A DNA stretch of 64,000 bases from a virus (lineage: Duplodnaviria; Caudoviricetes), in the IMG/VR virus record IMGVR_UViG_3300012007_000014, positions 17,522 to 81,521 of that record; one strand, 5' to 3'. The notes beneath the pieces were generated by a model. The model was not told the origin of the DNA. It saw only the letters and a list, made by a program, of their open reading frames with translations, and did no database searches. Made by a program: the position numbers and the translations under genes. Every line of letters starts with the position of its first letter. Positions within the stretch are counted from its first letter, which is position 1. Below are positions 37,075 through 63,766 of the stretch, piece after piece.

Positions 37075-38568
37075 TTAGACGATATACATGTTCTTCTTTC
37101 TTCCAAGATCTTTAACGCTATTCTTTTTCCTATTTGTCTTCTTGTTAAGTTTCTTATTAACATTGTCGACACTATTCCTAAGATTATCAACAGGTGTATT
37201 TGTAATGATCTTCGGCTGATGAAGTGCCTTATTTAATCTATACTTAGCATTTCTTACAGTGTTTCTAGCATTAATCTTTGCAAGATCCTTTTTGTATCTT
37301 GCCTTATTCTTAAGACTTCTTGCATCAGACTGAACACTATAGATTCCAGCATCAATATTGTTCCTAGTCTGTCTTGCTCGTTTCTCGGCATCTCTTGCAG
37401 CATTGGATACAGATCTCTTAGCATTGGAAGCAGTTCTCTTTGCAGAATTAATGCCAGAGTTTACCCTAGATCTGGCCTCGTTCATTGCATTATTAGCAGT
37501 TCTCTTTGCAGAGTTAATTCCAGAATTTACTCTAGATCTTACTAAGTCAGCATTATTATTTGCATTAGACCTTGCTCTATTTACGGTTCTAGATGCGGTT
37601 CTCCGAATATCATTGATTTCATTCTCAGCGTTAGATCTTGCTCTATTTGCACTATTCTTTGCATAATTGATACCAGAATTTACTCTAGATCTGGTTTCAT
37701 TCATGGCATTATTAGCAGTTCTTCTAGCAGAATTAATCCCAGAATTCATTCTAGATCTGGTTTCATTCATGACATTATTAGCAGTTCTTCTAGCAGAATT
37801 AATGCCGGAGTTCATTCTAGATCTAGCCAAATCAATATTATTATTTACGTTGGATCTAACTCTGTTTGCAGTTCTATTTGCTGTTTTCCGAATATCATTG
37901 ACTTCGTTCTCAGCTCTATATCTAGCATTGTTGGCTGTTCTCTTTGCAGAGTTGATACCAGAATTCACTTTCCTTCTAGCAGAGTTGATACCAGAATTCA
38001 CTCTAGATCTAGTTAAATCAACATTATTTCTTACTCTAGATTTCGTTCTACTAGCTGTTCTTCTTGCAGTTCTTTGAATATCATTGAACTCATTCTCAGC
38101 GTTAGATCTAACTCTATTTGCAGTTCTTCTTGCGGAATTAATTCCAGAGTTTACTCTAGATCTGGCTAAGTCAATATTATTTCTTGCATTAGATCTGGCC
38201 CTATTTACACCGGAGTTTACTCTATTGGAAAGATTTTCTGCAGTATCTCTAGCCGCGTCAATACGATCATTCACACCGTTTCTAAACTTCGTTACAGCAT
38301 AATCCCTATTTACTGCATCACTAATTTCATTTGCAGTATCTCTGGCAATACGACTTGCCTGATTAGAAATATAATTTAACTCTTTTCCTGCCTGTTTCGC
38401 TCTAAGCTGCTGCTTTCTTGCGAGGATCCTGTTTTTGTTCTTGATGTAATACGCCTTATTGTAAGCATCCTGCTTTGCCTTATCCCAGTTCTTGGAATAG
38501 TGGGCCTTACCTGTTGCAGCATGTTCGATGTAATCGTCAAGACCTAAATTCCAGCTATAATTATTCAT
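37075..38568 (-). CDS. Very basic R/N/S/A repeat protein with YIEH leader
   Basis: About 10 copies of RSR(V/M)NSGINSA(R/K)RTAN; N-terminal DDYIEH. Confidence 0.8.
   Translation of the reverse strand: MNNYSWNLGLDDYIEHAATGKAHYSKNWDKAKQDAYNKAYYIKNKNRILARKQQLRAKQAGKELNYISNQASRIARDTANEISDAVNRDYAVTKFRNGVNDRIDAARDTAENLSNRVNSGVNRARSNARNNIDLARSRVNSGINSARRTANRVRSNAENEFNDIQRTARRTASRTKSRVRNNVDLTRSRVNSGINSARRKVNSGINSAKRTANNARYRAENEVNDIRKTANRTANRVRSNVNNNIDLARSRMNSGINSARRTANNVMNETRSRMNSGINSARRTANNAMNETRSRVNSGINYAKNSANRARSNAENEINDIRRTASRTVNRARSNANNNADLVRSRVNSGINSAKRTANNAMNEARSRVNSGINSAKRTASNAKRSVSNAARDAEKRARQTRNNIDAGIYSVQSDARSLKNKARYKKDLAKINARNTVRNAKYRLNKALHQPKIITNTPVDNLRNSVDNVNKKLNKKTNRKKNSVKDLGRKKNMYIV
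37400..38230. repeat. In-frame degenerate tandem repeats (ACTCTAGATCT core)
   Basis: Includes adjacent 66-bp units near 37670-37830; all preserve frame. Confidence 0.85.
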
Positions 38569-42526: not shown

Positions 42527-42820
42527 TTAGGATACACCTCCCATACTAAGAGCAATTGCAGACTCAAGATCTGAAATTCTCTGTCTTAAAATATCAGTTG
42601 ATGTGAAGTTACCGAAGATCACATGGTCCTTACCATCTTCCATAAAGTGCGCGACTACCTTATCGAAATTTGTGGTAACGCCATCAATCTTCATGTTCTT
42701 AATTGTATCGTTTGTAAAGGCGTCACTAGGAACTACAGTATCAAAAATATAATTATTTCCGTTTAATGTAGCTTCGTATGACTTTCCATTACTAAGTACA
42801 ATTGTATGCTTCTCTTCCAT
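42527..42820 (-). CDS. Hypothetical protein
   Basis: LSNG......LNGNNY; GGAGG RBS inside RT 3' end. Confidence 0.6.
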   Translation of the reverse strand: MEEKHTIVLSNGKSYEATLNGNNYIFDTVVPSDAFTNDTIKNMKIDGVTTNFDKVVAHFMEDGKDHVIFGNFTSTDILRQRISDLESAIALSMGGVS

Positions 42821-43889: not shown

Positions 43890-44069
43890 AAACAATAATT
43901 CCTTTATATTTATTAGCCTTAAATTAGAGTGGAAATTAGTCGGCTAGAGATAACAGACGTATCTGATCTCATCTAATATGGAGATATTCTCCACCCACTC
44001 CTTTATTTCTCCATTTAGCTGGAAGGGACTAAATCTCCTTCTCCTGATCCATTTCTGAACCAAAAGAAT

Positions 44070-44159
44070 CCCAAAACGCTGTTCCAAGTATTCGAAGCGT
44101 TGTTCCTATTCGCGTTACCATTGTTGTTGACATTCGCAAAGTTAGATGCTGACACAACG
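44070..44159 (-). repeat. DGR template repeat (TR)
   Basis: AAC/AAT-rich; 71/90 identical to VR 44786-44875; 17 of 19 mismatches at TR adenines. Confidence 0.96.
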
Positions 44160-50009: not shown

Positions 50010-52064
50010 TCAGGCGCCAGTTCCAGCAGCCTTCACAGGCTTGTAGTAGAACGTGATTGCAGACAGAGGCTTAACAAGAGCACCGGACATACGAGTCTCA
50101 TACAGGCAGATCTGTGTATTCGTGTTCAGGTCGAAATCATCGAAGAAGTCGGTCTTTGCACCGCCATTTGTACCAACATTGTAATCTGCAAGGTTGACAT
50201 CAACACCTGCGACATCGTACTTGGTCTTGGTAGAGCCATCATCACCAGTGACCTCAATCTGAAGGCCATCCATAACCTCAATCGGCTGAACAGTGGAGAC
50301 TCTCATTGCAGTTGCAACCTCAGCCTCAGACTTGTACATCCGCTCTCCAATACCATTCTCAAGAAGCAGAACGTTGGTAAGCTCATCCTCCTTGGTGTAG
50401 AAGGTCATGTTGCCAGAGCCCTTGTACTGCTTTCTAGCCTTGAGCTGTGCCTTCAGCAGAGCCTTTGCCTTCTGATCGTCGGTTGCGTTCTCAGGAATCT
50501 CAACAGGGAACTTAATGGTGTAGAGATCAGAGTCATTGAAGACAGGGCGAATATTCTCTTCCTTAATCTTGTCCTCATCAGATGCAAGACGACCATCACC
50601 GATCAGGATTGCTCTTGCAATCTCCTCACGAAGCATGACCTGCATCTCAGCCTTAACCCAAGCGACCACATCGAACTCAGTGATGTCATCGATGTCATCC
50701 TTGTCGAGCTTCTGCTTCTTATAGATGGTCTGTGGAGGCGTCACACGCTTTAAGAGAGAGAAGACCTCCTCCTTCTTAAGCTTTCCCTTAATGTAGCCCT
50801 TTGCTCTTGCCTCATCCTCGGTGATGTTTGCAAGAACACTCTTCACACGAGAGAACGGAGTCTTGTGAACAGAAGACAGAACCTTGTCCACCCAGCCCGT
50901 ATCTCTCTTAATGAACTCGGGCTTGTCGCCAACCATCTTTGCCTCAGGGAAGAGATAGTCGATGTTCTCAATGCCATAAGTCTGGTCACCATGAGCGATC
51001 GACTCATCATCGCCGTAATACTCATCAAACGCCTGGCTAAGCTTGCCAGTTCTCTGGGTGAGCTCCATGATGTTCGTCATATCATCATGAGAAATGTACT
51101 CTCTACCCTCATCTGCTGCGCCATAATCCTCAAATACATTGTGCTTCACGTTATCATCCTCCTCATCGGATTCTTCATCTGCAGTTTCAAGTGCCTTACC
51201 AATCAGAAAATCAACAACCTTCTTCTGCTTGGGTGTTAATGTGTTGATGACATCCTCGACGGTCTCATCTTCCTCGTCGTCCTCGTCGTCTTCATCATCC
51301 TCAGCATGCTCTACGTCGTCCTCATCGTCATAATCATCTGAGTCGTCGTAGTCATCCTCATCATCTTCGTCATCATCGTAATCGTAATCGTCATCATCCT
51401 CTGCGTGCTCGACGTCCTCATCCTCGTCTTCGTCGTCAGCCTCATCAGAAGTAATCTGACTAATAATGATGGCAACAGCTTTCTTCTGCTTATCAGTTAA
51501 GGTATCAAATACGTCCTTAACAGTCTCCTCGTCGTCATCTTCATTGTCAGCGGGAGACTTTCTTCTCGTATCTTCCTTTGCCATGTCTTCTTCCTCACTT
51601 GCATCTGCATGATAAATCTCAGGTGCACCAAAGCCCCAAATTTCTGCCTCATCATCTGAAATATCACCATGCTCCAATACTGTATCAATTCTTGCTTCTG
51701 GATCAGCACCACCAATTACTAGCGATACTTCCTTGATCACTCCATGAAGAATATCTCCTCCTCTCCTAATAAGCTTATTGGCCCAAATAGAAAGGGAATT
51801 AATATCTCCATTTCGAAGAAGCTCTTTTGCAGTCTGTCCACCTTCTGTATCGTTGAAATATCCATCAACTCTGGTACCTCCAGGGACACAATGCAAAATT
51901 GCATGACCAAGCACCTGTCCTACTTCATCGTGATTGTGCATATAACAAAGTGGGACCTGCTCGCCATCCTGTTGATCAAAGCAGCCGTCTCGTATCGTTG
52001 TGCCGTCCGAGCAGAGAACATTGGACTTACTAGCCCATCCCTGAAAATCAGGTTTCCTCATCGT
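50010..52064 (-). CDS. Fused prohead protease - acidic scaffold - major capsid protein
   Basis: HK97-type protease motifs (MHNH, SLSIWA, EVSLV..GADP.A), D/E linker, capsid domain (KTPFSRVKS, TPPQTIYKKQKLD, ETRMSGAL); strong codon bias. Confidence 0.92.
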   Translation of the reverse strand, partial: TMRKPDFQGWASKSNVLCSDGTTIRDGCFDQQDGEQVPLCYMHNHDEVGQVLGHAILHCVPGGTRVDGYFNDTEGGQTAKELLRNGDINSLSIWANKLIRRGGDILHGVIKEVSLVIGGADPEARIDTVLEHGDISDDEAEIWGFGAPEIYHADASEEEDMAKEDTRRKSPADNEDDDEETVKDVFDTLTDKQKKAVAIIISQITSDEADDEDEDEDVEHAEDDDDYDYDDDEDDEDDYDDSDDYDDEDDVEHAEDDEDDEDDEEDETVEDVINTLTPKQKKVVDFLIGKALETADEESDEEDDNVKHNVFEDYGAADEGREYISHDDMTNIMELTQRTGKLSQAFDEYYGDDESIAHGDQTYGIENIDYLFPEAKMVGDKPEFIKRDTGWVDKVLSSVHKTPFSRVKSVLANITEDEARAKGYIKGKLKKEEVFSLLKRVTPPQTIYKKQKLDKDDIDDITEFDVVAWVKAEMQVMLREEIARAILIGDGRLASDEDKIKEENIRPVFNDSDLYTIKFPVEIPENATDDQKAKALLKAQLKARKQYKGSGNMTFYTKEDELTNVLLLENGIGERMYKSEAEVATAMRVSTVQPIEVMDGLQIEVTGDDGSTKTKYDVAGVDVNLADYNVGTNGGAKTDFFDDFDLNTNTQICLYETRMSGALVKPLSAITFYYKPVKAAGTGA

Positions 52065-53382
52065 CATATCCTCCACTATTTAGTGCATCCAAGATATCTT
52101 GTACATAATCATCATTTTGCCTTGTATCTGCACCATCATTTTGAGAGTCTTCGTCTCCTCCCGTATTCTGCTCAACCGTCGCACTAGATTGAGTGATGTT
52201 AGGATTGGATAAAGTCTCAGCCTGTTGTGCATCTGAAGGTTTCAGTCCGATTTCTGCTCGGATCTCATTGGATGTCATGATTTCATTACGTCTAAACTTG
52301 TCGGCAATATCAGCAAGCTGACTGACAGGAACAAGCTTGAAAGGATCTCTAAAGAAGACAATAGACTGTCCCTGAGATCTTGCTGTTCTAGATAAGAACT
52401 TTCGCTTAAACTCATCACAAATGACAGAACAGATCGGTGCAATCGTATTGTTGTAGTAATTAATCATTACTGCTTCATTTGCTGATCCATCCATTACGCC
52501 TTGAGTTAAACCAAGCTGGTTATAGAGCTGGGTTGTTAAATCTTTCACCTGATCCCAAAGATTGTTTTCAAGTGAGCGATTAAGCTGAATGATTCTTTCT
52601 GTACCATCCGCCCAAGCAACACCATATCTAGAGCCCTCAAGCTGCTCTGTTAATTCCTTCCGTCTCTGATTGGCAATCTCTTTTCGCTGTTCACTCTTTA
52701 CTGCATAAGGAAGCTGAATAATAAGATCAAGCTTACCTGCTGCTGACTGTTCGTTTAACTGATCCAGTTTTGCAATTGTCCTTTGAAGGCGTTTTAGTGT
52801 AGAGTTTGGTTCATTCATGATAGAATAGAACGGATTCTCAATCACTGCCACAGAGGACTTAGGAAGCCGCAAATCTTGATAGTTTCCTGTTCGCTCATTG
52901 TAAAGATGAACAACTACTTCAGAAGGGTACCAACCAACAATTCTTCCAACCTTTAGCCTTTGGATCATCCATTGCTCAGATAGTCTTGTAGGATCAAAGT
53001 CAGTATCGGTAGGAACCACTGCAACACAACCCTCATCAAACATTGATTGGACAATATCCTGAAGGAGAGCTTTGCCAGTTTGATCTGTGTTTGCTTCGGT
53101 GTTTAGACAATAATTAAGACCAGAATCGACGTTTTCAATAAACGATCCATTCTCATCAACTTTGCAATGCTCAAACCGAATGGATGAGACATCAATTGCA
53201 ATTCTGTTATAAACAGATGCAACAATGGTTCTTTGAGAGGTGTTTACGAAATGCATTCGATCTGGTCTTGACGAATAACCCATGTACGGCTGGTTATTAG
53301 TGCCATCGTTTCTAATCTCCTGGGTCGGATCTCTTCCGAGGAAGGCATTCCAGCCCGATTTTATTCGTTGGACAATTCCCAT
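52048..53382 (-). CDS. Portal protein
   Basis: YNRIA.DV, EAN.DQT, IENPFY..MNEPNSTL, LDLIIQLPY, DPFKLVP; after terL. Confidence 0.92.
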   Translation of the reverse strand: MGIVQRIKSGWNAFLGRDPTQEIRNDGTNNQPYMGYSSRPDRMHFVNTSQRTIVASVYNRIAIDVSSIRFEHCKVDENGSFIENVDSGLNYCLNTEANTDQTGKALLQDIVQSMFDEGCVAVVPTDTDFDPTRLSEQWMIQRLKVGRIVGWYPSEVVVHLYNERTGNYQDLRLPKSSVAVIENPFYSIMNEPNSTLKRLQRTIAKLDQLNEQSAAGKLDLIIQLPYAVKSEQRKEIANQRRKELTEQLEGSRYGVAWADGTERIIQLNRSLENNLWDQVKDLTTQLYNQLGLTQGVMDGSANEAVMINYYNNTIAPICSVICDEFKRKFLSRTARSQGQSIVFFRDPFKLVPVSQLADIADKFRRNEIMTSNEIRAEIGLKPSDAQQAETLSNPNITQSSATVEQNTGGDEDSQNDGADTRQNDDYVQDILDALNSGGYDDEET

Positions 53383-55139
53383 CAGTCAAAACTCTCCTTG
53401 TTTAGTTTGAAAGCTACAAAAGCATCCATCAGTGCTGCAACAGCATCGATCTTTGCTTCATAACTCTTTTTCATAAGCTTCTTATTCCCATTGGTGTCTT
53501 GGATAACAATACAGTTACCCATTGTGTAAGAGAATAGTTTTTCATCAAATATCAGTAATCTTTGCTCTGCAAGCTTTTTCAATTCTGTCAGAGGAACAGA
53601 TTCTGTCTTAGATCCCTGAATCACTTTTTCAACACCGAACTCTCCATTTTCTGTGCACCAGCGTTGGATGAATTCCTTGGCATTGTAGGGGTCATATCCT
53701 AAACATCTCACGTCATATTTATTCGTTTGAATATGCTTATCAAGATCATCATAAACATCTTGCATATCCAAATTCGTACCAGGCATGACAACAAGCGATC
53801 CTTCTGCCATGAACTCTTCATACTTTTGTCGCATAGCAGCGGGAAGTTGTGACATCGTGTATTCTGAAATGTAATCAATTGTTTTAATCCCAAATCGTCC
53901 ACCTGATAAAGGGAACAAGAATGTGAAAGAACAGAAGTCACCACCTTGAGATAAGTCACATCCAATCGAGCAGGGCATTCCAGTATAGTCTTGGTAATGG
54001 AATGGTTTAATCTCCTCATAAGTAAAGAAGTAGGTATAGCCTTCCATTGGAATGCCGAATCGTTTTGCTAGAATATCATTTCGATCAATCGGGTTATGTT
54101 CTGCTTTTTCTACATCAAGTTGATATGTTTCATAAGAAACAGTCTTACCAAGATTCGGATTTGCTTTCAGCCACATTTGCGGATTGTTCACTTCAGTTAC
54201 ATCATCAAGTTTGTACCAAAAGATAGATACATGAGGATTGTAATAATCCCCTTTTAAGATAGAAGACAACTCCATTTTGATCGTGTCACCAACACCATTT
54301 CTTACGGTTCCCTCTGAGGAAACAGCAATGATGAGAAAGCCATCAATCTTTGCACAACCCTGCTCCAATGCAGTAATTGGACTCTCTCTTATGTCTCCTG
54401 AAAGCCACTCATCGACGGTTGCTATTTTGTCTCCTCGACCCTGAAGCTTATCAATTGACATCGGACAGAATTCGATTAGAGAATTGGTGATAAAGTTTTG
54501 GATGCCTTTCTTTGTTGCTGCTAGTTTCAACTTATTCCTGGAAGAACCGGTTGTGTTATTGATCGATCCTTCTGTTAAAAATGTAAACAATGGCCCACGC
54601 GATCTTGTAATAGCAGTTCTAATGTAAGCAATTGTCTCATTCCCCTGCCTTTCTGTTGGAGCTGTAATGCATTGCTGCGTCGTAGTGGTATCAACGGTAA
54701 GACCATATGATTGGAAGCAAGCTTCATATCCAGTCTTTGAAGCTCCTCGTCCAACAATTAAATATTGATGGTCGACAAGACGCTTCTTTACTTTTCTGTT
54801 TTCGTATCCACCTCTCCCACCGCCATAGTGGTTTGGGTTCCAAACAGTACGATCTGTAAAGTAATACCAACCTAAGATCTCTTCTCCCCAAAGCTTGTAG
54901 GAGTCGAGCATAAAAAAGTCTGAGCCATCTCTTAGAGTTAGCTCAGATTCACAAAACTCAATCCAACCCTCAACAGGAGCGGGATCGTAATAAAATCTAG
55001 GATCTTTAATAAGAGCATCGATCCTATTCATCTCCATGGAAATCTCTTTACAAACTGGAATCTCTCCTCGTAGTACCTTGCTTCTAAACTCTCCGTAATA
55101 TTTTGGGGTTGCGGTGTTAGAGAGCATCGCTCTTGTCAC
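53382..55139 (-). CDS. terL: Terminase large subunit
   Basis: Walker A VGRGASKT, Walker B VDEW, nuclease CDLSQGGDF, YDPYNA, KIDAVAALMD. Confidence 0.95.
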   Translation of the reverse strand: MTRAMLSNTATPKYYGEFRSKVLRGEIPVCKEISMEMNRIDALIKDPRFYYDPAPVEGWIEFCESELTLRDGSDFFMLDSYKLWGEEILGWYYFTDRTVWNPNHYGGGRGGYENRKVKKRLVDHQYLIVGRGASKTGYEACFQSYGLTVDTTTTQQCITAPTERQGNETIAYIRTAITRSRGPLFTFLTEGSINNTTGSSRNKLKLAATKKGIQNFITNSLIEFCPMSIDKLQGRGDKIATVDEWLSGDIRESPITALEQGCAKIDGFLIIAVSSEGTVRNGVGDTIKMELSSILKGDYYNPHVSIFWYKLDDVTEVNNPQMWLKANPNLGKTVSYETYQLDVEKAEHNPIDRNDILAKRFGIPMEGYTYFFTYEEIKPFHYQDYTGMPCSIGCDLSQGGDFCSFTFLFPLSGGRFGIKTIDYISEYTMSQLPAAMRQKYEEFMAEGSLVVMPGTNLDMQDVYDDLDKHIQTNKYDVRCLGYDPYNAKEFIQRWCTENGEFGVEKVIQGSKTESVPLTELKKLAEQRLLIFDEKLFSYTMGNCIVIQDTNGNKKLMKKSYEAKIDAVAALMDAFVAFKLNKESFD

Positions 55140-55662: not shown

Positions 55663-56502
55663 TTACTTATTTGGTTGACCACCCGGCTTCTTTCCCTTAT
55701 CGGCATTGTAGTTAATCTTCTGAAGATCGGTTCCTGCAAATGCATTAGCGTATCCAGCAATGGTATTCCACACATCAGCGCCTGTTCTAGCCCAACCATT
55801 GATCTGTTTTGCAGTATTCACCGCTTTGTCAATCTTATCCATGGCAGTTGGTTCTTTTAACTCGGAATTTATACCTGCCATGAGATCTGCTTTGTAAAGA
55901 GCAGTTTGAAGTTCATCTTTACTTGCAAGAGGTGCAACACTTTGGATACGTCTTAAATCGCCAGACTCAAGTGCTTCTTTCTTTTCTCTTTCTTTTGGAG
56001 ACAAGTTCTTTGTAACATCATTGCCATCTGGCTTTTTCTTCAATCTGTCCATGGCATCAATTCGATTCATGGCTTCTCGAAGTTCATCCTGAGACATTTC
56101 TTTGGCGTACTTCTTTACTTGAACTCTGCTTCCAGATTTAATGGCTGCTTGTCTTTTTGCTTCATGCTCTTCTGGAGTCTCTGGTTTGGGTTCTTTCTTT
56201 GTAGAACTCATTGTTTCACTCTTTGATGGTGTTCTAGATCTTGAAACAGTTGTTCCACTCTTTTTAATGTTCTCAATTGAACCTTTTCCAGAGTCAGACC
56301 CAACTTTAATTCCAGCTTTTGAAGCAGCCTTTTTCTCATTTGCTGAGTGATCGCCTTTTCCAAGTGGATAGGGAGGACCATTCAAGCGTCCCCATTTCAT
56401 ACCTAAGATCCCATGATGTGCGATCGAGAGTATTTCATCATTGATCTCTACATCATTATGATCTAGGTACTCATCTAATTCTAAAGGAGTCATATGATGC
56501 AC
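55663..56502 (-). CDS. HHG-leader protein (basic cargo)
   Basis: SIAHHGILGMKWG..NGPPYPL; two Helix repeats (ELREAM.R / ELQTAL.K). Confidence 0.8.
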   Translation of the reverse strand: MHHMTPLELDEYLDHNDVEINDEILSIAHHGILGMKWGRLNGPPYPLGKGDHSANEKKAASKAGIKVGSDSGKGSIENIKKSGTTVSRSRTPSKSETMSSTKKEPKPETPEEHEAKRQAAIKSGSRVQVKKYAKEMSQDELREAMNRIDAMDRLKKKPDGNDVTKNLSPKEREKKEALESGDLRRIQSVAPLASKDELQTALYKADLMAGINSELKEPTAMDKIDKAVNTAKQINGWARTGADVWNTIAGYANAFAGTDLQKINYNADKGKKPGGQPNK

Positions 56503-56595
56503 CTCCTCTCCTCTTATGATTCTTACTCATAACCATATTCATTAGTAAGTAGCTTCCCAGGTCTATAATAATCGGCATTATCATTTGGATCACTC

Positions 56596-57138
56596 CTACA
56601 TGCCAATATTTTTAATCTTTTCATTAGCCCACATATCGTATTCTGCTTTTGCAGCTTTAGAAGCTTCTGAGTAAGCCTTAGATGGAATATTATGCACAAT
56701 AACACCAGCTAGCACACCAGTAATAGGACCTCCTAGTACAGTTCCAACAGCAGCTCCGATAGCAGTGTTTCTGTCATGAATGTATTTGTAGCCGCCTACT
56801 TCTTTTTCTGCTTTACTAAGACCTTTACCATAAATTTTTGCATTCACGTTTGCCTTATTTGCAAGATCTTTATACTTATTGGCTTTTGACGTATTTCCTT
56901 TTACTCTGGCATCTACTGCTTTACTAGCGTACTTTGATGCAAGTTGTCCCTGCTTCCAAGCTTCAGCAGATCTCCTAGCTCGGCTCTTATAAGACTCAAC
57001 ACGATTCGAACCATCGTCCTGATAAATCCTTTTTCTTCCTGCTGCCGTTAATGTTCCATCCGGATTCTGATATCTTCTAACTCCCCACTTTTGTCCTAGA
57101 ATTCCATGATGAGATAGATAATCGCTATATTCATTCAT
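56596..57138 (-). CDS. HHG-leader protein with C-terminal Gly-rich hydrophobic helix
   Basis: YLSHHGILGQKWGVRRYQN.DGTLT.AG+.R. Confidence 0.8.
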   Translation of the reverse strand: MNEYSDYLSHHGILGQKWGVRRYQNPDGTLTAAGRKRIYQDDGSNRVESYKSRARRSAEAWKQGQLASKYASKAVDARVKGNTSKANKYKDLANKANVNAKIYGKGLSKAEKEVGGYKYIHDRNTAIGAAVGTVLGGPITGVLAGVIVHNIPSKAYSEASKAAKAEYDMWANEKIKNIGM

Positions 57139-57376
57139 ATTCGTTACCCCTACTCCATAATTTGAAGAACTCATTGGGATGAGGATCGTTTGTTGGCTGA
57201 TATGCTCCAATGACGCCAGTCTTTTTATTGACAGCATACATGGAATCTAGAGAGTTAAAGCTATTCTTGTTCTCCAAAAGAAAGATGTAATATCCGTTGT
57301 AGTCAACATACTTTCTTGCTTCCTTTTGAGGGAATTGTTTTAGGAGTTTTTTATAAGCTTCTTGAAAAGTAATCAT
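57131..57376 (-). CDS. Putative immunity/partner of papain-fold protein 57373-58767
   Basis: ATGA-coupled; homologous to 61818-62078. Confidence 0.55.
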   Translation of the reverse strand: MITFQEAYKKLLKQFPQKEARKYVDYNGYYIFLLENKNSFNSLDSMYAVNKKTGVIGAYQPTNDPHPNEFFKLWSRGNEYE

Positions 57377-58767
57377 TTGTCGCCATAGACCTCCTTCTTC
57401 ACTCTATCTTGATTCCACCAATCCATATCTTTGAGTTGTGTGTACTTGTCTTCAATTGCTTGCCATCTATCCCTTTCCTCGTCAGTATCGGGGATATACA
57501 TGTTGAGACTCTTGTTGTAGTGATTGACCATATTCTCGATGTCTTTTACATCATAGTTGAATGTGACGTTCCTATTGGTCTTTGCCTCGTCCACGTTATC
57601 ATTTGGCTCGAGATAACTTGCTGCCGTCTTTGTAAGTGCCTTATCATCTGTTCGAAGAGCTGTTACTTGATTGGGTGCTACATAGTCTGCTTTGCTATAA
57701 TCTGCCATCTTTTCCGTGGTGTTGTTTTGAGCATCATGGATGTAGATCTCTCCGTCTTTCTTTTCCCAAGCGACGTTGTGACCGCCTCCACCTTCCCAAT
57801 AAATGTCAAGACATCCTCTTGCACCATCTTCGTATTTGTCATTGAGCATGTCGGCAGCTTCTTCCATGGTTTCTTTTCCATTGCTTGCCTTCTGCTCTAG
57901 TGCAACATCAAGATCCCAACCACTGTTTATATTGATCGTACCGTCACTATTTTGGTAAGATTCAACACCTTCATAGAAGCTTGAGATCTCTTCATCCGTT
58001 CCACCATTTGGATCATACTGTGCTTCTACGTCGTATCCTCTGTGTCTTGCTTCCCAGGTAAGCGAACAGTCATAACAATTGGTAGACCATCCAGGTTCCA
58101 GATCAATTCCGCCATCGGTCATTGACTTATGAAAGTTCTTATTGACCTCTGCCATTGACTGTTCTTCTGTCTCTGGAGTTTTAATAAGATCAAACTCACT
58201 CATAATTTCTCGTTCTGCTTTTGCTTCTGGATTATTATTGTAGTAAGCATTCAGTTCTGCTTCTGTATAGAAATATCTATACTTGCCCTTAATCAAAAGC
58301 TTTGCAACGTATTTGTGAGTCTTAGAGTTCGTATCTTTATTTGTCTTGGGAATTGGCTTAGGAGAATGGCTTGCTGGATTCTTTGTCTTCTTGTTCTTAG
58401 ATGTACGCTTCTTGATTGCAGCATCTGCCTTGTCGATTACATCCCATCTTCCATTCTTATCGGTGTCAGCAACGTCCTCGATCTTTTCTACAATATCCCA
58501 TTTGCCGTTACCATCTTTGTCGACTGTCTTCTTAAAGCTATTAATTGCCTTATTTAAAAGAGATCTGATCTTCTTTAAAGTCTTTTGTTTCTTATTCTTC
58601 TCAGAGCCTTTTGATCCTTTGAAATAGACATCATACTCTGCTTTAGAATAGAAATATAAATAGGGTTTCTTCTTGTTTCCTGTTTCAATTCTCTTGTAGT
58701 ACTTGTGGGAAGCTTTTGTCTCGTAATGGAGACCTGTTTTTCTATGAGCAATGTAGTCTTCCATCAT
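57373..58767 (-). CDS. YIAH-leader protein with papain-fold (Tox-PL-like) domain
   Basis: TNCYDC...RGYDVEA, GGGHNVAW, IHDAQ = Cys-His-Asp; two HKY..KY.YFY..AE repeats. Confidence 0.75.
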   Translation of the reverse strand: MMEDYIAHRKTGLHYETKASHKYYKRIETGNKKKPYLYFYSKAEYDVYFKGSKGSEKNKKQKTLKKIRSLLNKAINSFKKTVDKDGNGKWDIVEKIEDVADTDKNGRWDVIDKADAAIKKRTSKNKKTKNPASHSPKPIPKTNKDTNSKTHKYVAKLLIKGKYRYFYTEAELNAYYNNNPEAKAEREIMSEFDLIKTPETEEQSMAEVNKNFHKSMTDGGIDLEPGWSTNCYDCSLTWEARHRGYDVEAQYDPNGGTDEEISSFYEGVESYQNSDGTININSGWDLDVALEQKASNGKETMEEAADMLNDKYEDGARGCLDIYWEGGGGHNVAWEKKDGEIYIHDAQNNTTEKMADYSKADYVAPNQVTALRTDDKALTKTAASYLEPNDNVDEAKTNRNVTFNYDVKDIENMVNHYNKSLNMYIPDTDEERDRWQAIEDKYTQLKDMDWWNQDRVKKEVYGDK

Positions 58768-59114
58768 GCATCCCCCGCTTCGTTTTCTGCCATGATACGC
58801 CATTCAAATTCTGCAATCTGTTTGTTCAGCGCATCCAGTGCAAAGCTTGAAGCAGGTGGATCGAACATGACTTTTACTTTCATTCCCACATATGTTTTGA
58901 TAAGATTGAATCTTGGATCAATCACAATATCATCCCAAGTTGAGGTATTGTCCACGATTTCATATCCAGTATCTGGTCCAATTCCTAACTGATGGAGTGT
59001 TGAAAATGTAGTGTTGATATAAAGGAGGATTTGATCATCAAATACTGTATACTCAGGTACAATCCCAAGCTGTTTCTTGATTGAATCCAAAATTGACTCA
59101 TTCTGTTTTGCCAT
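58764..59114 (-). CDS. Head-tail connector/adaptor protein
   Basis: SILDSIKK.LG......FD..I...IN..F..L.QLG.GP...FDPP.S. Confidence 0.8.
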   Translation of the reverse strand: MAKQNESILDSIKKQLGIVPEYTVFDDQILLYINTTFSTLHQLGIGPDTGYEIVDNTSTWDDIVIDPRFNLIKTYVGMKVKVMFDPPASSFALDALNKQIAEFEWRIMAENEAGDA

Positions 59115-59137
59115 TGCTATCCTCCTTTCTTTTTAAG

Positions 59138-59895
59138 TTAATCTAGTTCAACAGTTTTGATGTAGTTTTTAATCCAATCAGAACCGCGTTTTGCTTGCGC
59201 AGATTTTTCTAATGATTTAAGCTGCTGATTCATTACTTTATACCAATCGAGTCGATCTTGAATATCATTTTCATCAAGTTCGTCTCTTTCGCCCCCTCTA
59301 ATTGCTGATTCTTTTGGTGAAGTTCCAAGTATAATTAGAGGCTTGTCATTATAAAAATTTGGATCCGTTCTAAGAAAATCTTTATCAGCTATTTGAACTC
59401 CTTCACAAATAACTTTCCTGCCATTCTTGTATTCTCTTGCAGAAAATTCATCCATCGCCTTTATAATATTATCTGAGATTTTAATTCCTTCTTTATGAGA
59501 TTTTTCAAATGTTGGAACGAATTCCTTCCAATTCTTCACATGCTTATTTAAATATGAATTGAAAGATTTATTCTGAAGTTCTCTTTTCGATTCTTCACTC
59601 ATTGGGTTTAAATAGGAATCCAAATTAATCCAATCGGTCTCACCGTCATCGGCCATAAAAGATGCGACGGTTGATTTGCCAGAGCCAGAATATCCAGTTA
59701 TATACAAAGTATTATATTGCGGTGCTTTGCCCCAACGATCAAGATTTGATGATTTAGCATTCTTAAGCCTTTGAAGAGCCGGAGATGAATGAATCTTTTT
59801 ACTACTAGAGGATAAGGTGGACCGTTCTTTACGCCCCATTTTTGTCCCTTAACACCGTGATGCGAAATGGAGTCTAGGTAATACTCACTGCCCAT
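59138..59895 (-). pseudogene. HHG-leader P-loop kinase split by a -1 frameshift near 59800
   Basis: Leader frame 59698-59895 (SISHHGVKGQKWG..GPPYPL) joins frame 59138-59839 (ITGYSGSGKST, WINLD, ICEG). Confidence 0.7.
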
Positions 59896-60202
59896 TGCTA
59901 TCCTCCTTTCTTTATTTAGTCATTACTCTTAATTCAATTTTAATTCTTCTTTGGTCATAGTCTTATGAATATTTAACAGAGTTCTTTTTCATTTTTTCGA
60001 CGATACCAATTCATACTTTTTAGACTTTTTATTCCAGTTGTTTATTACTTTAATGATGAGGAATCACTGCTTCTTGAAAGATCACATCCAAAAGAACGAT
60101 GCAACTCATTTTCTTTGTTCGTGTAGTCACTTATTCTAAAAAACTTTTCAGTTTTATGGTCCTCAAGATCTTTTGAAATCTTTTCTTTTAATTCTTCTTT
60201 TG

Positions 60203-60967
60203 TCATAGCTTTATGATCTTTCCTTGTTTATTAAGTTCTCTCTTGACATCAGTATAATTCTTATACATATTTGCAAGAACATTATAGTCAGTAGTACCGA
60301 GCCATTTCAAATCTTTTCGATTAAAAATAATTATCGGATCTTGTGCCTCATTATAAACGCCCTGATTGTTATCATCAACCATAGCGTCAAAATTCTTTTC
60401 CATTAATTCCTTGTATTTCTTCGTTGTCTTAAACGCCTCGACATTTTCCATTGCATGGTTAAATACGTCATAGGCCGCTTTATAGTCATCCTCTGTTTTA
60501 AGATTTGAAAGATCAACCGATACTGATTTTCTATCACGTTCACCTGGGTACTCGGAGAAACCATAGTTTTTGAGCCTTTCTTGCACATTACTGAGATCTT
60601 TTACTGCAACATCTTTATTCTCGTTGTATACTTTCTTAAATGCTTCATATCGTTCTTTACTGTTCGGCATTTTCAGATCTCTTGTGACTTCATAGCTTAC
60701 ATCTTCAAGTGGATATTGACCCAAGTTTGATTTGTAAATAGAAAAAGGTCCGCGATACACTTTTGAATCCCATTCATTTTCTGGATTATAAGTGTACTTC
60801 CATTTTTTATTGATGTTGGGGATTGCTCGATTAAATACATATTCAATCGAATTCAGCTTTGTATCTTTTTTAAGCACTTTGTCTTCAATTGGATAAGGTG
60901 GACCGTTCCTTACACCCCATTTTTGTCCCTTAACACCGTGATGAGAAATATAGTTATTCATAGACAT
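60203..60967 (-). CDS. HHG-leader protein with possible ADP-ribosyltransferase-like cargo
   Basis: YISHHGVKGQKWG; KYTY, DLKMP, FDAMVDDNN...PIIIFN. Confidence 0.65.
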   Translation of the reverse strand: MSMNNYISHHGVKGQKWGVRNGPPYPIEDKVLKKDTKLNSIEYVFNRAIPNINKKWKYTYNPENEWDSKVYRGPFSIYKSNLGQYPLEDVSYEVTRDLKMPNSKERYEAFKKVYNENKDVAVKDLSNVQERLKNYGFSEYPGERDRKSVSVDLSNLKTEDDYKAAYDVFNHAMENVEAFKTTKKYKELMEKNFDAMVDDNNQGVYNEAQDPIIIFNRKDLKWLGTTDYNVLANMYKNYTDVKRELNKQGKIIKL

Positions 60968-60968
60968 T

Positions 60969-61382
60969 TTACCTCCATGGTATCTGGTCATTTGGTTTTC
61001 GCTCTATGGGACTTGTTGGAGTAAGTCTTTCAAGAGCACCATAATGAATTGCGTTGTGTGTTTGCAATGACACAGTAATGAGATTGTTTAAATCAAACAC
61101 TGCTGGGTCATGATTTGTTACTTGTTCAATTGTGATGGGATTTAAGTGATGAATGAGAATAGATCTTAACAACGGTCTTTCTGCTATTCCTAGATCACAA
61201 CCATTGTCTCTTATGATGACGGCTCTTCTTACTTTCTTCCATTCTGGAGAATTGTAGAGAATCTGATTTAGTACTCTATGACCACCAAATGTAATCTCAG
61301 ATGGAGAGCCATTACACTTGCAATATTCAAATCGTTCCTCGAAAGTTGGAAGTAAGATTAGCTCGCTATAAGTTCGAAGCAT
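60969..61382 (-). CDS. HNH endonuclease (packaging-associated)
   Basis: IIRDNGCDLG, IHHLNP, NLITVS..THNAIHYG. Confidence 0.88.
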   Translation of the reverse strand: MLRTYSELILLPTFEERFEYCKCNGSPSEITFGGHRVLNQILYNSPEWKKVRRAVIIRDNGCDLGIAERPLLRSILIHHLNPITIEQVTNHDPAVFDLNNLITVSLQTHNAIHYGALERLTPTSPIERKPNDQIPWR

Positions 61383-61411
61383 AGCATCCTCCTTTCTAAG
61401 AAGCATAAAGA

Positions 61412-61446
61412 AAGAGCCTTAGATCATTTCTGACCTAAAGCTCTTT
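61412..61446 (-). terminator. Intrinsic terminator
   Basis: AAAGAGCTTTAG...CTAAGGCTCTTT followed by T-rich run. Confidence 0.6.
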
Positions 61447-61560
61447 GAAGAATATCTTATCGATTTGTTTAAGATTTATACATCTGACCCATTTCGAATT
61501 GATCGTCTATGCTTTCCATCTCTTGAGTAATACACTCTAAGGAGAGTTACTTGCTAACTG

Positions 61561-61821
61561 TCAAAACAAATCTTTTAGTATCTTCTCAATGAAAGATTCT
61601 TTTTGCTCTGGAATGTCTTTTACACTTACATCGCTATACTCATCTCTCATATCTTCAAATGCTTTGAACCCATTCTTTCTTGCGAGAAATTCCTCATGCT
61701 TTCTGATAGAATCCGCATAATGAATTCTTCCTTCTGGGGTAAATGTTCCGTCTTTGTACTGCCAGCGTCTCTTGTACCATTTCATTCCATGGATGCCAGA
61801 ATGCTTCACAAAAGTTTTCAT
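61561..61821 (-). CDS. Minimal His-leader protein
   Basis: FVKHSGIHGMKW..RRWQY.DGT.T.EGR.HY. Confidence 0.7.
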   Translation of the reverse strand: MKTFVKHSGIHGMKWYKRRWQYKDGTFTPEGRIHYADSIRKHEEFLARKNGFKAFEDMRDEYSDVSVKDIPEQKESFIEKILKDLF

Positions 61822-62078
61822 CTCGTAAACTTAATTCTGTTTTGCATGCCTTCTCTAAATTCTTTTGGATCCATAACAGGTGAATACTCTGTTACCTTTC
61901 CATTTGCAGACACTTTAAAGAAAGGATCCATAAGAACTTCATCTTTCGGCCACTTATCAGGTCTTAGAGAGAACACGTATCCATCTTTTACTTCAAAACC
62001 AAAGATTGCATGGGATTTAACACCAGAAGACTTTTTTACATAATCTTCAACAATTTTCTTTGCAACATTAATATTCAT
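61818..62078 (-). CDS. Putative immunity/partner of papain-fold protein 62089-63429
   Basis: Directly downstream; homologous to 57131-57376. Confidence 0.55.
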   Translation of the reverse strand: MNINVAKKIVEDYVKKSSGVKSHAIFGFEVKDGYVFSLRPDKWPKDEVLMDPFFKVSANGKVTEYSPVMDPKEFREGMQNRIKFTR

Positions 62079-62088
62079 AGAAACCTCC

Positions 62089-63429
62089 TTACCAAGTATC
62101 AACTTTCTTGCCGCTCCATTTGTTCTCAACAAATCCAGAATCATTAGCAAGCCTTAAAACAGAATCTTGTTCCATAGCATCTAAGTTTGGTTCACAATTA
62201 TCTAATCTATATGTCGAGACACTAGCACTCTTGTCAGCACCATATTCATCCATCATCTCTTTAACAGATTCAAAGCATCTTCCATTTTGTCCATCCTGAA
62301 TTTCGAAGTTACCATCTTTATCATTTGTCCAATGCATCGAATGGCCACCACCGTTATCAGGATATCTAATACTTATTGTACCAGAAGTCATTGGTCCATA
62401 TGATCTTAAGCCATCTTCTGCTGCATCGGAATCCATGTCAATTCTTTGAGCACCTTTGAACCAATAGCCCATTGCATCTGCACTTGAAGGATAGGATTGT
62501 CTTCCAGCATTTACTTCATATCCTCTAAGTCTCATTTCTAGATCAGCAGAACACTTAGCACAATTCTGAGTTGTTCCAGCATCACCAAATCCAGGATTGC
62601 ATAAATCGAGATCTCTATTAAGAAGTTGACCAAAGGAATGATCTCTTACAACATTTCCATTTTCGTCAATGTCATGGAAGTTATCACTTGTTCTGAAATT
62701 AGCATTATTTCTTGCAATTGTCTTGGCAACATTCTCATCCACATAATCTGTTCCATTTATAACCATACTGCTCATTTCCTGCCAATCGAAGTCATGGCCA
62801 TTGATGAGACCTGATACCCATTCTTCTCCTGGGTGATCACTTCTTGAGAATTTGGTAAGACTTCCAACTTGGTAATCTTTTAAATCATCAACCTTTGCTT
62901 TCCCAGATTTGATGAGAGAGTTGATGTATGCGTTCTGACCGCCTCCTGGTTTGCTAGCACTGGTTGCTACTTTTGAAGATCTTGTTTTCACGTATCTCCC
63001 AGTAGATTTTCCAACTTTAACGCCTGCTTGCTTTGCAGCTGCAATCTGTGCTTTGGAATGACTCTCTGCACCAAGTGGATAGGGAGGGCCATTCCTATGT
63101 CCCCATTTCTGTCCAGCAATTCCATGGTGAGAAAGAATGTCATCAGAAGACAAATACTCTTCTAGAAACTTATTACCAATAATAGCACAATGAATCATTA
63201 CATCATCAGGCTGGTAGTGTTTGTAGAAGTCATTGTTTTTACTTGGAGTAAGTTGAATGTTATACTCTTTAACTTTCTTAGCGATTCTCTTTGCAAGTTC
63301 TTTTCGGTACCTAGGCTTGGCCCAATTGAAGAACTTAACGGCAGAGATTACATGAGCCCTTGTATCAAGAGGGAATTTCTTTTGTTCAGGGATTCCGTAT
63401 TCCCTATCCTTCTGTTCCATCGTCTTCAT
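62089..63429 (-). CDS. DUF6582-like N-domain + HHG leader + papain-fold (Tox-PL-like) domain
   Basis: YGIPEQKKFPLD...HV.SA..FF; ILSHHGIAGQKWG; QNCAKC...RGYEVNA, GGGHSMHW, IQDGQ. Confidence 0.78.
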   Translation of the reverse strand: MKTMEQKDREYGIPEQKKFPLDTRAHVISAVKFFNWAKPRYRKELAKRIAKKVKEYNIQLTPSKNNDFYKHYQPDDVMIHCAIIGNKFLEEYLSSDDILSHHGIAGQKWGHRNGPPYPLGAESHSKAQIAAAKQAGVKVGKSTGRYVKTRSSKVATSASKPGGGQNAYINSLIKSGKAKVDDLKDYQVGSLTKFSRSDHPGEEWVSGLINGHDFDWQEMSSMVINGTDYVDENVAKTIARNNANFRTSDNFHDIDENGNVVRDHSFGQLLNRDLDLCNPGFGDAGTTQNCAKCSADLEMRLRGYEVNAGRQSYPSSADAMGYWFKGAQRIDMDSDAAEDGLRSYGPMTSGTISIRYPDNGGGHSMHWTNDKDGNFEIQDGQNGRCFESVKEMMDEYGADKSASVSTYRLDNCEPNLDAMEQDSVLRLANDSGFVENKWSGKKVDTW

Positions 63430-63766
63430 GACCTGAATACCTCTTCATTGCCTCAATCGCATCGGAATAAATCTTCTCCAAATGCTCTGCAGATTCTAGT
63501 GCTTGGATCTTTGCGTCTTTCAGTTTCATCTCAGACTCCATGAGTTCCTTCTGAAGTCTGTCTGTACTCGATCCTAGCTTTAAAAAGTGAACAATCTCTT
63601 GTGAAGTTGCAGTTCCTTCTCTGATTCTCTTCTCAGCAGCATCATAGGCAAGTGAAATGAGTTCGTTTTCTCTTGCTTCCATTGAGGTTGCTGCATGAGT
63701 TGGGAGGTTTGTGATAGGTTCTGTATCACCTGGGTTTTGTTTGTGTGTAGTTCTGTTTTGTTTCAT
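63404..63766 (-). CDS. Putative terminase small subunit
   Basis: RENELISLAYD.AE.RIR.GTATSQ...HFLKLGS; first gene of packaging arm, helical. Confidence 0.55.
   Translation of the reverse strand: MKQNRTTHKQNPGDTEPITNLPTHAATSMEARENELISLAYDAAEKRIREGTATSQEIVHFLKLGSSTDRLQKELMESEMKLKDAKIQALESAEHLEKIYSDAIEAMKRYSGHEDDGTEG

What the first reader, a model, noticed from the sequence alone, without database searches (positions are those of the whole stretch)
55663..63429. Polymorphic virion-cargo array sharing the capsid's [ILV]-x-His leader
Seven genes here plus 37075-38568 begin with, or contain after an N-domain, the same signal: SIAH-HG, YLSH-HG, YIAH-R, SISH-HG, YISH-HG, FVKH-SG, ILSH-HG, YIEH-A. 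It is usually followed by G.KGQKWG..NGPPYP or RRYQN.DGT.T. The C-termini are unrelated: two papain folds, a P-loop kinase, an ART-like domain, a hydrophobic helix and basic repeats. The leader resembles what I recall as DUF7211. Inference: a capsid-targeting and processing sequence, like the T4 internal-protein CTS, that loads a swappable effector arsenal into heads for injection. It is distinct from MuF-fused toxins since no MuF is present. I cannot verify from here whether this link is published.
Basis: partly seen in the sequence, partly recalled or inferred. Interest (0 to 1): 0.92.

Follow-up and report, generated by a model that had tools for sequence, protein, structure and literature searches.

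The report
His-site tag on phage head cargo
A rumen phage puts the same short peptide tag, opened by a "hydrophobic-x-His" site that also studs its capsid precursor, on a varied set of enzyme-like, toxin-like and membrane-helix proteins, so they are probably loaded into the virus head and delivered with the DNA, though nobody has measured this.

Summary
Six genes between the putative small terminase and the large terminase carry Pfam DUF7211: [LI]-x-H-[HY]-G-x-x-G-[QM]-K-W-G. One of them is split by a 1-nt deletion that is absent in relatives and in other metagenomes. Two further genes (57373-58803 and 37075-38568) share only D-Y-I-x-H.

The capsid gene (50010-52076) is an S78 protease-linker-MCP fusion. 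All 7 His of its linker sit in hydrophobic-x-His followed by a small or acidic residue. In 29 homologous linkers, 160 of 170 His have a hydrophobic residue at P3.

The tag is widespread in one phage lineage: 1706-like phages, the actinophage supercluster and gut Clostridia phages. It lies inside the head and packaging module. Every sufficiently complete tag-bearing genome I checked also has this capsid fusion. C-terminal parts are highly polymorphic (77 clusters among 167 proteins). They include papain-like, ART-like, kinase, GNAT and Ntox50 domains. The lineage's own RNA polymerase carries a variant of the tag.

Lactococcus phage 1706 ORF7, which has two tags, is annotated "structural protein" by its depositors. 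Cleavage, packaging and injection are all inferred, not shown.

The reading works like the T4 capsid-targeting sequence but is not a member of that system, and there is no MuF. I found no paper that mentions the tag. Earlier agents of this scan reached the same reading on other genomes.

The parts
62089..63429 (-). 446-aa protein: DUF6582 N-domain, L-S-H site at His101, DUF7211 tag, long disordered spacer, papain-like Cys/His domain
   Evidence: Family alignment A4 has invariant N-C, H and Q. The papain domain aligns with that of 57373-58803 at 2e-7. AF2 model and Foldseek give papain-like effector proteases at 1.3e-4.
61818..62150 (-). 110-aa ORF overlapping the end of the papain gene. Possible partner or immunity protein; unsupported.
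   Evidence: Position only. No Pfam match, no homolog in related loci, atlas hits at chance level.
61561..61821 (-). 86-aa basic protein with a degenerate tag (V-K-H-S-G-I-H-G-M-K-W-Y)
   Evidence: (13 bits). phrog_32444 at 1.7e-7, shared with 56596-57237.
60969..61406 (-). HNH endonuclease of the packaging module (context)
   Evidence: Homolog of OhMyWard gp12, annotated HNH endonuclease, and conserved in 33 of the 82 loci scored (80 IMG/VR, OhMyWard, the window).
60203..60991 (-). 262-aa protein: tag plus ART-like fold. The most conserved tagged family, also found in Gordonia and Arthrobacter phages.
   Evidence: AF2 mean pLDDT 72, with the tag disordered. VIA list is almost all ART superfamily: MbcT Z 6.7, diphtheria toxin catalytic domain 5.6, cyanophage A4 pre-ejectosome 5.0.
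60045..60206 (-). 53-aa ORF overlapping the end of the ART-like gene; function unknown
   Evidence: Conserved only in the near-identical relative L002.
59138..59895 (-). Tag plus P-loop kinase gene, split in this record (leader ORF 59698-59895, kinase ORF 59138-59839) by a 1-nt deletion in a poly-A run
   Evidence: L058 is in frame. L062 has the intact fusion. An extra base behind 59795 is present in runs X2 (part of the depth), X3 and X15.
58764..59114 (-). Connector protein (PF24829), context
   Evidence: 1.8e-34. Homolog of 1706 orf6, annotated 'structural protein'.
57373..58803 (-). 476-aa protein: D-Y-I-A-H site only (no DUF7211), two K-Y...Y-x-Y-F-Y modules, papain-fold toxin domain PF15644
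   Evidence: (32 bits against a cut-off of 24.1).
57131..57376 (-). 81-aa ORF overlapping the end of the papain-toxin gene. Possible partner; unsupported.
   Evidence: Position. Weak Tad2-like match at 0.06. A similar segment is fused in front of a papain domain in L067.
56596..57237 (-). 213-aa basic protein: tag (RRYQNPDGT variant) plus a C-terminal hydrophobic helix
   Evidence: 30.1 bits; 33 bits.
55663..56502 (-). 279-aa protein: two His sites (L-D-H, I-A-H), tag, Ser/Lys-rich spacer, S-x-D-E-L-R helical motif. This family is in 17 loci and usually ends in a hydrophobic helix.
50010..52076 (-). S78 protease, acidic/helical linker and HK97-type major capsid protein in one gene. His sites at residues 136, 156, 224, 257, 312, 330 and 362.
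   Evidence: (phrog_3270, 9e-187).
52048..55139 (-). Large terminase (53382-55139) and portal (52048-53382), context
63404..63766 (-). Putative small terminase, named by position only (phrog_4259, function unknown). Conserved at the head of the module.
   Evidence: Homolog of OhMyWard gp11 and 1706 orf4.
37075..38568 (-). 497-aa basic helical-repeat protein in the tail module, with leader M-N-N-Y-S-W-N-L...D-Y-I-E-H and no DUF7211
   Evidence: repeats similar to tape-measure proteins.

Best explanation
DUF7211 with its opening [LI]-x-His is a short, disordered linear signal. It marks proteins for incorporation into the procapsid of one siphovirus lineage whose major capsid protein is made as a protease-linker-MCP fusion.

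Proposed course of events:
1. The head module is expressed late. Gene order is shown; timing is inferred.
2. The fusion protein assembles on the portal with the protease and the acidic helical linker facing inward. This is inferred from HK97-type assembly.
3. Tagged proteins dock inside through the tag, either on the protease cleft or on the linker helices. This is inferred.
4. The S78 protease cuts after His at hydrophobic-x-His sites. That frees itself, chops the linker, exposes the mature MCP N-arm just before G-I-E-N-I-D-Y-L-F-P, trims the 6-17-residue leaders, and separates modules of polyproteins such as DUF6582 from the papain protein. This is inferred from motif statistics only.
5. The cargo leaves with the DNA. 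Small basic proteins with a hydrophobic helix would help passage through the envelope. Enzymes (ART-like, papain-like, kinase, and elsewhere GNAT and Ntox50) would act on the host. The tagged RNA polymerase would start transcription. This is inferred by analogy with T4 IPI-III and Alt and with N4 and crAss virion RNA polymerases.
For: - The tag is real and recurrent: 6 copies here; more than 523 pattern matches in IMG/VR, 362 of them confirmed; 253 confirmed in bacterial genomes, mostly gut Clostridia. Of the 82 loci scored, 48 hold 2-8 copies.
- In loci that contain TerL, all 146 tagged genes are on the TerL strand. 59 lie between TerS and TerL, 49 between TerL and portal, and 10 between portal and capsid.
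- In 29 capsid-fusion linkers, 170 His were counted. P3 is L, I, V or M in 158 and hydrophobic in 160, against a background of 24%. P1' is A, S, G, N or D in 154, against 38%. All 7 linker His of this phage fit.
- In the tag, P3 is L or I in 178 of 180.
- The first site closes the protease domain (invariant H133). The last site sits just before the conserved MCP N-arm.
- Co-occurrence with the fusion:
  - all 8 viral records at least 88% complete
  - the cultured phages OhMyWard, Qui, Bilo, 1706 and ReqiPoco6
  - 8 of 10 bacterial assemblies whose locus lacked markers
- The tag is predicted disordered in both models.
- The tag can be internal, after DUF6582 or DUF5662, or repeated within one protein. 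That fits a cut or dock site rather than an export signal.
- C-termini fall into 77 clusters among 167 proteins, including toxin domains.
- The lineage's two-barrel RNA polymerase, encoded just upstream of the array across the record junction, begins ...S-I-A-H-Y-G-K-G...R-Y-P-W-G-S-G. Its homologs in 14 loci begin ...I-L-M-H-Y-G...R-Y-P-W-G-S-G.
- 1706 ORF7 has two tags and three more L-x-H sites, and is called 'structural protein' without 'putative' by its depositors.
Against: - There is no experimental cleavage or virion datum for any tagged protein that I could read. The 1706 and ReqiPepy6 papers are not held, so the basis of the 'structural protein' label is unverified.
- P1' is H or Y in the tag but almost never in the linker sites. 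The tag may therefore not be cut, or may be cut differently.
- The conserved G..G.KWG lies downstream of the presumed cut.
- All co-occurrence is within one phage lineage, so it may reflect shared descent.
- HK97-type S78 proteases are not known to cut after His (my knowledge of HK97 gp4).
- Two of the eight proteins lack DUF7211.
Confidence: 0.58

Rival explanations
1. The tag directs incorporation into the head, or into an ejection complex at the portal, but is not cleaved. The [LI]-x-H start would be a pseudo-substrate or docking element for the protease domain, or an unrelated resemblance.
For: P1' is H or Y in 177 of 180 tags, against A, S, G, N or D in 154 of 170 linker sites. The most conserved residues lie after the His and would be kept. 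The position in the head module and the co-occurrence are explained equally well.
Against: P5-P1 of the tag (acidic or polar, then aromatic, then L or I, then x, then H) resembles the linker sites. Internal tags sit between domains, and further plain L-x-H-[SA] sites occur in the same proteins (1706 ORF7 and the L002 polyprotein). That pattern looks like polyprotein processing.
Confidence: 0.2
2. The tagged proteins are assembly factors or scaffold-like internal proteins of the procapsid. They are degraded or expelled at maturation and are not delivered to the next host.
For: Many are small, basic and low-complexity, which would complement the very acidic linker. The protease-MCP fusion has no separate scaffold gene. 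Two families are conserved across the lineage.
Against: Papain-toxin, Ntox50, DUF4258, GNAT, kinase and ART-like domains and an RNA polymerase have no obvious role in assembly. Diversity of 77 clusters is unlike that of scaffolds.
Confidence: 0.1
3. The tag is an export or release signal for phage-encoded bacteriocin-like toxins, secreted or freed at lysis to act on neighbouring bacteria, and is unrelated to the capsid.
For: Several C-termini are polymorphic-toxin domains. Small ORFs follow three of the genes, as immunity genes would.
Against: The tag is not hydrophobic. It can be internal. It occurs on the RNA polymerase. It is confined to genomes with this capsid fusion, in both Actinobacteria and Firmicutes phages. 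The small ORFs have no recognisable immunity family and no conserved pairing.
Confidence: 0.05
4. The shared N-terminus is only a recombination or duplication scar: a common 5' cassette that lets genes be swapped, with no function of its own.
For: Genes occur in tandem arrays with variable 3' parts.
Against: The peptide is conserved at protein level between phages of high-GC Actinobacteria and low-GC Clostridia, with invariant H, G, G and W. It also occurs internally.
Confidence: 0.04

Closest known systems
Phage T4 capsid-targeting sequence (CTS) of IPI-III and Alt, removed by prohead protease gp21 (Mullaney and Black 1996, cited in PMC12991175; reviews PMC9958956, PMC9026906)
   Same: A short N-terminal leader sits on unrelated proteins. 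It ends in a hydrophobic-x-residue site that matches the sites processing the phage's own head precursors. The cargo includes an ART-type enzyme, as Alt is. The presumed route is delivery with the DNA.
   Different: P1 is His, not Glu. The protease is an S78 domain fused to the capsid protein, not gp21. The conserved G..G.KWG lies after the presumed cut and would be retained. The hosts are Gram-positive and the phage is a siphovirus. No experiment exists.
MuF polymorphic toxins of temperate phages (PMC5576092)
   Same: These are phage-borne proteins with a conserved N-terminal part tied to head morphogenesis and highly variable C-terminal toxin domains, thought to travel in the capsid.
   Different: There is no MuF domain in this genome. 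The conserved part here is a disordered peptide of about 20 residues, not a folded domain. There are many tagged genes per genome instead of one. Cargo also includes non-toxin proteins and the RNA polymerase.
Pfam PF23847 (DUF7211), function unknown
   Same: It is the same peptide. Two to three of the window's proteins reach the gathering score.
   Different: From the model and its one-line description, the family covers only the 25 residues and is listed as of unknown function. I did not read the full Pfam entry. The links to the His sites, the capsid fusion, the position in the head module and the RNA-polymerase variant come from this analysis and from earlier notes of this scan.
Ejection proteins and head-internal proteins of giant phages phiKZ and SPN3US, processed by their prohead protease (PMC7411985, PMC10052503)
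   Same: Many head-internal proteins are cut at a short consensus by the prohead protease and are ejected into the host.
   Different: Those are a different protease family with a different consensus (x-x-Glu). They are myoviruses of Gram-negative hosts. No shared tag like DUF7211 is described for them.

Membership tests
Pfam DUF7211 (PF23847) | HMM score at or above the gathering cut-off of 27 bits | tested here: met
   56596-57237 scores 30.1-33 bits. 60203-60991 scores 27.4-30.7. 55663-56502 reaches 27.6 together with its neighbours in the frame. The other three are below the cut-off (26, 24 and 13 bits) but align in register.
T4-type CTS cargo system | A short leader on unrelated proteins that ends in the prohead-protease consensus | tested here: inconclusive
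   Leaders are 6-17 residues long and end in [LI]-x-H. P3 and P1 match the linker sites, but P1' does not.
T4-type CTS cargo system | The same consensus processes the phage's own capsid or scaffold precursors | not testable with these tools
   The motif is strongly enriched in the linker, but cleavage itself cannot be observed here.
T4-type CTS cargo system | A gp21-type (S77) prohead protease and homologous internal proteins | tested here: not met
   The protease domain matches Peptidase_S78 and phrog_3270, not gp21. It is therefore not a member. The claim is 'works like' only.
T4-type CTS cargo system | The leader is sufficient to package a foreign protein | not testable with these tools
   This needs a tag-GFP packaging experiment.
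MuF polymorphic toxins | N-terminal Phage_Mu_F domain (PF04233) | tested here: not met
   No match in the 81.5-kb genome at E <= 1, while the controls ring.
Polymorphic toxin systems (conserved trafficking part, variable toxin, adjacent immunity gene) | A variable C-terminal toxin domain behind a conserved N-terminal part | tested here: met
   77 tail clusters among 167 proteins. PF15644, Ntox50 and DUF4258 are among them.
Polymorphic toxin systems (conserved trafficking part, variable toxin, adjacent immunity gene) | A cognate immunity gene immediately downstream | tested here: inconclusive
   Small overlapping ORFs follow three of the genes. They match no immunity family, show no conserved pairing and do not resemble each other.
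Peptidase S78 (HK97-type prohead protease) | Pfam match plus conserved catalytic-type His and Ser residues | tested here: met
   PF04586 scores 21.5 bits against a cut-off of 21. H44, H46, S93, H108, E113 and S115 are invariant in the 26-sequence alignment A7 and invariant or missing in at most one of the 29 fusions scored. Which of them are catalytic was not tested.
ADP-ribosyltransferase/NADase (ART) superfamily, for 60203-60991 | ART fold with a catalytic H-Y-E or R-S-E type motif | tested here: inconclusive
   Nearly all VIA rows are ART-fold proteins, but Z is at most 6.7 and the best Foldseek E-value is 6e-3. No canonical catalytic triad was identified in alignment A3.
Papain-fold toxin 1 / Gln deamidase (PF15644) | Pfam match with a catalytic Cys and His | tested here: met
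   57373-58803 scores 32 bits against a cut-off of 24.1. 62089-63429 has no Pfam hit but aligns to it at 2e-7, has an invariant N-C...H...Q, and gives Foldseek 1.3e-4 to papain-like effectors. The activity, deamidase or protease, is unknown.

The most novel reading that the evidence does not exclude
A whole lineage of Gram-positive siphoviruses (1706-like phages, actinophage clusters AM, AU, AW, DJ, CC, EL and BI, and many gut Clostridia phages) uses a His-specific S78 prohead protease fused to its capsid protein. A portable tag of about 20 residues loads an open-ended arsenal into the head and injects it. The arsenal includes polymorphic toxins, an Alt-like ART enzyme, membrane-helix pilot proteins and the phage's own RNA polymerase. 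The tag could then be used to load foreign proteins into these capsids.
Probability: 0.4. Interest if true: 0.85.

Novelty: new variant of a known kind. Interest (0 to 1): 0.72.

Why it matters
Protein delivery by phage heads is well worked out only for T4 and a few giant or podo-type phages of Gram-negative hosts. This finding gives a sequence-defined, easily searchable candidate for the same principle in a large lineage that infects Actinobacteria, lactic acid bacteria and gut and rumen Clostridia.

If the reading holds, it would do four things:
- Assign a role to a Pfam family of unknown function and to hundreds of orphan genes beside the packaging genes.
- Predict an unusual His specificity for an S78 protease.
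- Suggest that these phages inject their own RNA polymerase and toxin-like enzymes.
- Offer a tag for loading proteins into capsids.

It is directly testable in cultured phages such as 1706, OhMyWard and FP_oengus.

Tried and rejected
- Complex prediction of the protease domain (A7) with the tag (A6) gave no answer, with a score of 0.01. This is not evidence either way.
- Sequence search of the capsid fusion against the PDB found no solved relative, so no mature N-terminus could be read from a structure.
- Literature searches found nothing relevant: 'DUF7211' gave 0 papers; motif strings gave only unrelated papers; 'after histidine' with prohead protease gave nothing relevant.
- Summer 2011 (PMC3020559) and Garneau 2008 (PubMed 18191977) are not held.
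- Immunity reading of the small downstream ORFs: there is no Pfam immunity family, no homologs beside related toxins, no similarity between the 81-aa and 110-aa ORFs, and atlas hits at chance level. It is kept only as a possibility.
- A regex search for a second leader family, D-Y-I-x-H-x-x-T-G, found only the window's own two proteins.
- I considered folding the 279-aa family, but the alignment shows low complexity plus a hydrophobic helix, so I used the second fold job on the papain family instead.
- Contigs from the RNA library (X15) cover part of the stretch. They cannot show transcription.
- Two MAG assemblies (G018, G020) and two viral records 65-75% complete showed no capsid fusion with this query. 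All four are incomplete, so I do not count them as counter-examples.

Full report
**What the window is.** The window is the right-hand 64 kb of an 81.5-kb IMG/VR virus record that CheckV rates complete. GC content is 38%. Nearly all genes lie on the minus strand. Near-identical DNA occurs in bovine gut metagenomes from several studies.

Gene order on the minus strand:
- putative small terminase, 63404-63766 (named by position only)
- the array under study
- HNH endonuclease, 60969-61406
- connector, 58764-59114 (PF24829)
- large terminase, 53382-55139
- portal, 52048-53382
- a 688-aa protein, 50010-52076, that joins an S78 prohead protease, an acidic linker and an HK97-type capsid protein (phrog_3270, 9e-187)

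The same fusion is found in Lactococcus 1706-like phages, Faecalibacterium phages, Rhodococcus ReqiPepy6 and ReqiPoco6, and Arthrobacter, Gordonia and Streptomyces phages. That is the inter-phylum supercluster described in bioRxiv 10.1101/842583.

**The observation.** Pfam DUF7211 matches six ORFs. In register they read hydrophobic-[IL]-x-H-[HS]-G-[IV]-x-G-[QM]-K-W-[GY], followed by RNGPPYP or RRYQ..DGT.

In five of the six the tag is at the N-terminus. In 62089-63429 it follows a 100-residue DUF6582 domain.

The tagged kinase is split by a 1-nt deletion in a poly-A run. The relative L058 is in frame there and L062 has the intact fusion. Contigs of two other DNA runs and one RNA-library run carry the extra base. 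The intact leader-kinase gene therefore exists, and the break is a strain variant or an assembly error.

57373-58803 and 37075-38568 share only D-Y-I-x-H-x-x-T-G. The leader of the latter recurs in L002 in front of a degenerate tag.

- two related papain folds
- a P-loop kinase
- an ART-like fold at modest Z, but with a nearly uniform hit list
- a hydrophobic helix and basic helical repeats

There is no MuF domain in the genome.

**The capsid link.** All seven His between residues 121 and 370 of the fusion sit in V-L-E-H-G, I-Y-H-A, V-E-H-A (twice), V-K-H-N, I-S-H-D and I-A-H-G.

I counted 170 His in 29 non-identical homologous linkers. These include Gordonia OhMyWard, Arthrobacter Qui and Streptomyces Bilo.
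- P3 is L, I, V or M in 158 and hydrophobic in 160, against a background of 24%.
- P1' is A, S, G, N or D in 154, against a background of 38%.

The sequences are related, so the p-values overstate independence. The pattern nevertheless holds at five or more separate linker positions and in phage 1706. The first site closes the protease domain. The last sits just before the conserved MCP N-arm.

This is what a multi-site maturation cleavage map looks like, with His at P1. In 180 unique tags P3 is L or I in 178. P1' is H or Y there, which differs from the linker sites.

**Distribution.**
- A pattern scan of IMG/VR gave more than 523 matches, 362 of them confirmed.
- A scan of one genome per species gave 253 confirmed matches, mostly Lachnospiraceae, Ruminococcus, Oscillospiraceae and other gut Clostridia. 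Some are prophages in complete genomes.
- Of the 82 loci scored (80 from IMG/VR plus OhMyWard and the window), 48 hold 2-8 tagged genes.
- In loci with TerL, all 146 tagged genes are co-oriented with it, and 118 lie between TerS and the capsid gene.
- A second architecture, DUF5662-tag-tail, lies about 10 kb upstream of the RNA polymerase, far from the head genes.

Every tag-bearing viral record at least 88% complete has the capsid fusion (8 of 8). So do five cultured phages. So do 8 of 10 bacterial assemblies whose locus showed no marker. I found no clean counter-example. All of this lies within one lineage, so it does not separate function from descent.

**Cargo diversity.** The parts behind the tag fall into 77 clusters among 167 unique proteins, 59 of them singletons.

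Three families are conserved:
- the ART-like family, also in Gordonia and Arthrobacter phages
- a small basic family with an S-D-x-E-L-R motif and a terminal hydrophobic helix
- the papain family

Pfam recognises GNAT, Ntox50, PF15644, DUF4258, DUF6883, a kinase, sigma region 4 and Mu gp27 among the representatives. Most have no other family. Both AF2 models leave the tag disordered.

**RNA polymerase.** The 1075-aa two-barrel RNA polymerase (D-F-D-G-D motif; phrog_4291, 8.5e-246) is encoded at record positions 659-3886. If the genome is circularly permuted, that is directly upstream of the array. It begins with a leader ending S-I-A-H-Y-G-K-G...R-Y-P-W-G-S-G. Homologs in 14 loci begin ...I-L-M-H-Y-G-x-x-R-x-S-G-R-Y-P-W-G-S-G. 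In bacterial-genome loci the polymerase is regularly next to TerS.

**Experimental hint.** Lactococcus phage 1706 ORF7 lies between the connector and TerL. It has two tags and three further L-x-H sites. Its depositors label it 'structural protein', while they mark inferred functions as 'putative'. ReqiPoco6 annotations note that gp019-gp022 share their N-termini and resemble 1706 gp07. I could not read either paper.

**Reading.**
- Most likely (0.58): the tag is a head-loading signal whose His site is a prohead-protease site. The proteins would be internal or ejected cargo.
- Main rival (0.2): loading without cleavage, because of the P1' difference.
- Less likely: scaffold-like assembly factors, secreted toxins, or a recombination scar.

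The closest known mechanism is the T4 capsid-targeting sequence, and the closest known gene class is the MuF polymorphic toxins. The finding is a member of neither. No paper in the held library mentions the tag. Earlier agents of this scan reached the same reading on other genomes.

Noticed in passing
window:42792-45645: Diversity-generating retroelement. The reverse transcriptase is at 42792-43895 (phrog_1423, PF00078). A 95-nt template repeat at 44065-44159 and a 78%-identical variable repeat at 44781-44875 lie at the 3' end of the 292-aa ORF 44767-45645. Mismatches are mostly at T on the plus strand, which is A on the coding strand.
   Followed up: partly
L089:659-3886 (record positions, outside the window): 1075-aa two-barrel (YonO/RdRP-like) RNA polymerase with the D-F-D-G-D motif. 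Its N-terminus carries a variant of the His-site tag. It lies just upstream of the array if the record is circularly permuted.
   Followed up: yes
window:59795-59800: A 1-nt deletion in a poly-A run splits the tag-kinase gene. Other bovine-gut runs and the relatives L058 and L062 have the in-frame form.
   Followed up: yes
window:27318-36611: A very long tape-measure gene (3097 aa) with a central hydrophobic, Ala/Gly/Ile-rich stretch of about 900 residues.
   Followed up: no
window:45661-47925: A 754-aa protein with a CotH kinase domain (PF08757, 7.7e-20) sits between the head and tail genes, next to the retroelement.
   Followed up: no
window:55393-55644 and window:12983-13231: Two paralogs of DUF6275 (PF19791). 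One lies directly between the tagged array and the terminase.
   Followed up: no
window:57373-58803, residues about 30-60 and 160-190: A repeated module H-K-Y-x-x-K...G-x-x-(K/R)-Y-x-Y-F-Y-x-x-x-E. A similar module (H-G-F-K-Y-K...G-K-W-I-Y-N-Y) follows a His site in 1706 ORF7. A further post-His module, (Y/L)-S-x-x-W...Q-x-A-Y-N-x-x-Y-Y, occurs in 37075-38568 and three times in L002.
   Followed up: partly
L002:544-1614: In a close relative, the first gene after TerS is a polyprotein-like ORF. It has three hydrophobic-x-His sites between short modules and DUF6582 at its C-terminus. In the window, DUF6582 is instead fused in front of the tagged papain protein.
   Followed up: partly
window:48390-49175: An endolysin (Amidase_5/NlpC-P60, ELLD and SH3 domains) lies inside the structural block, between the capsid and tail genes.
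   Followed up: no
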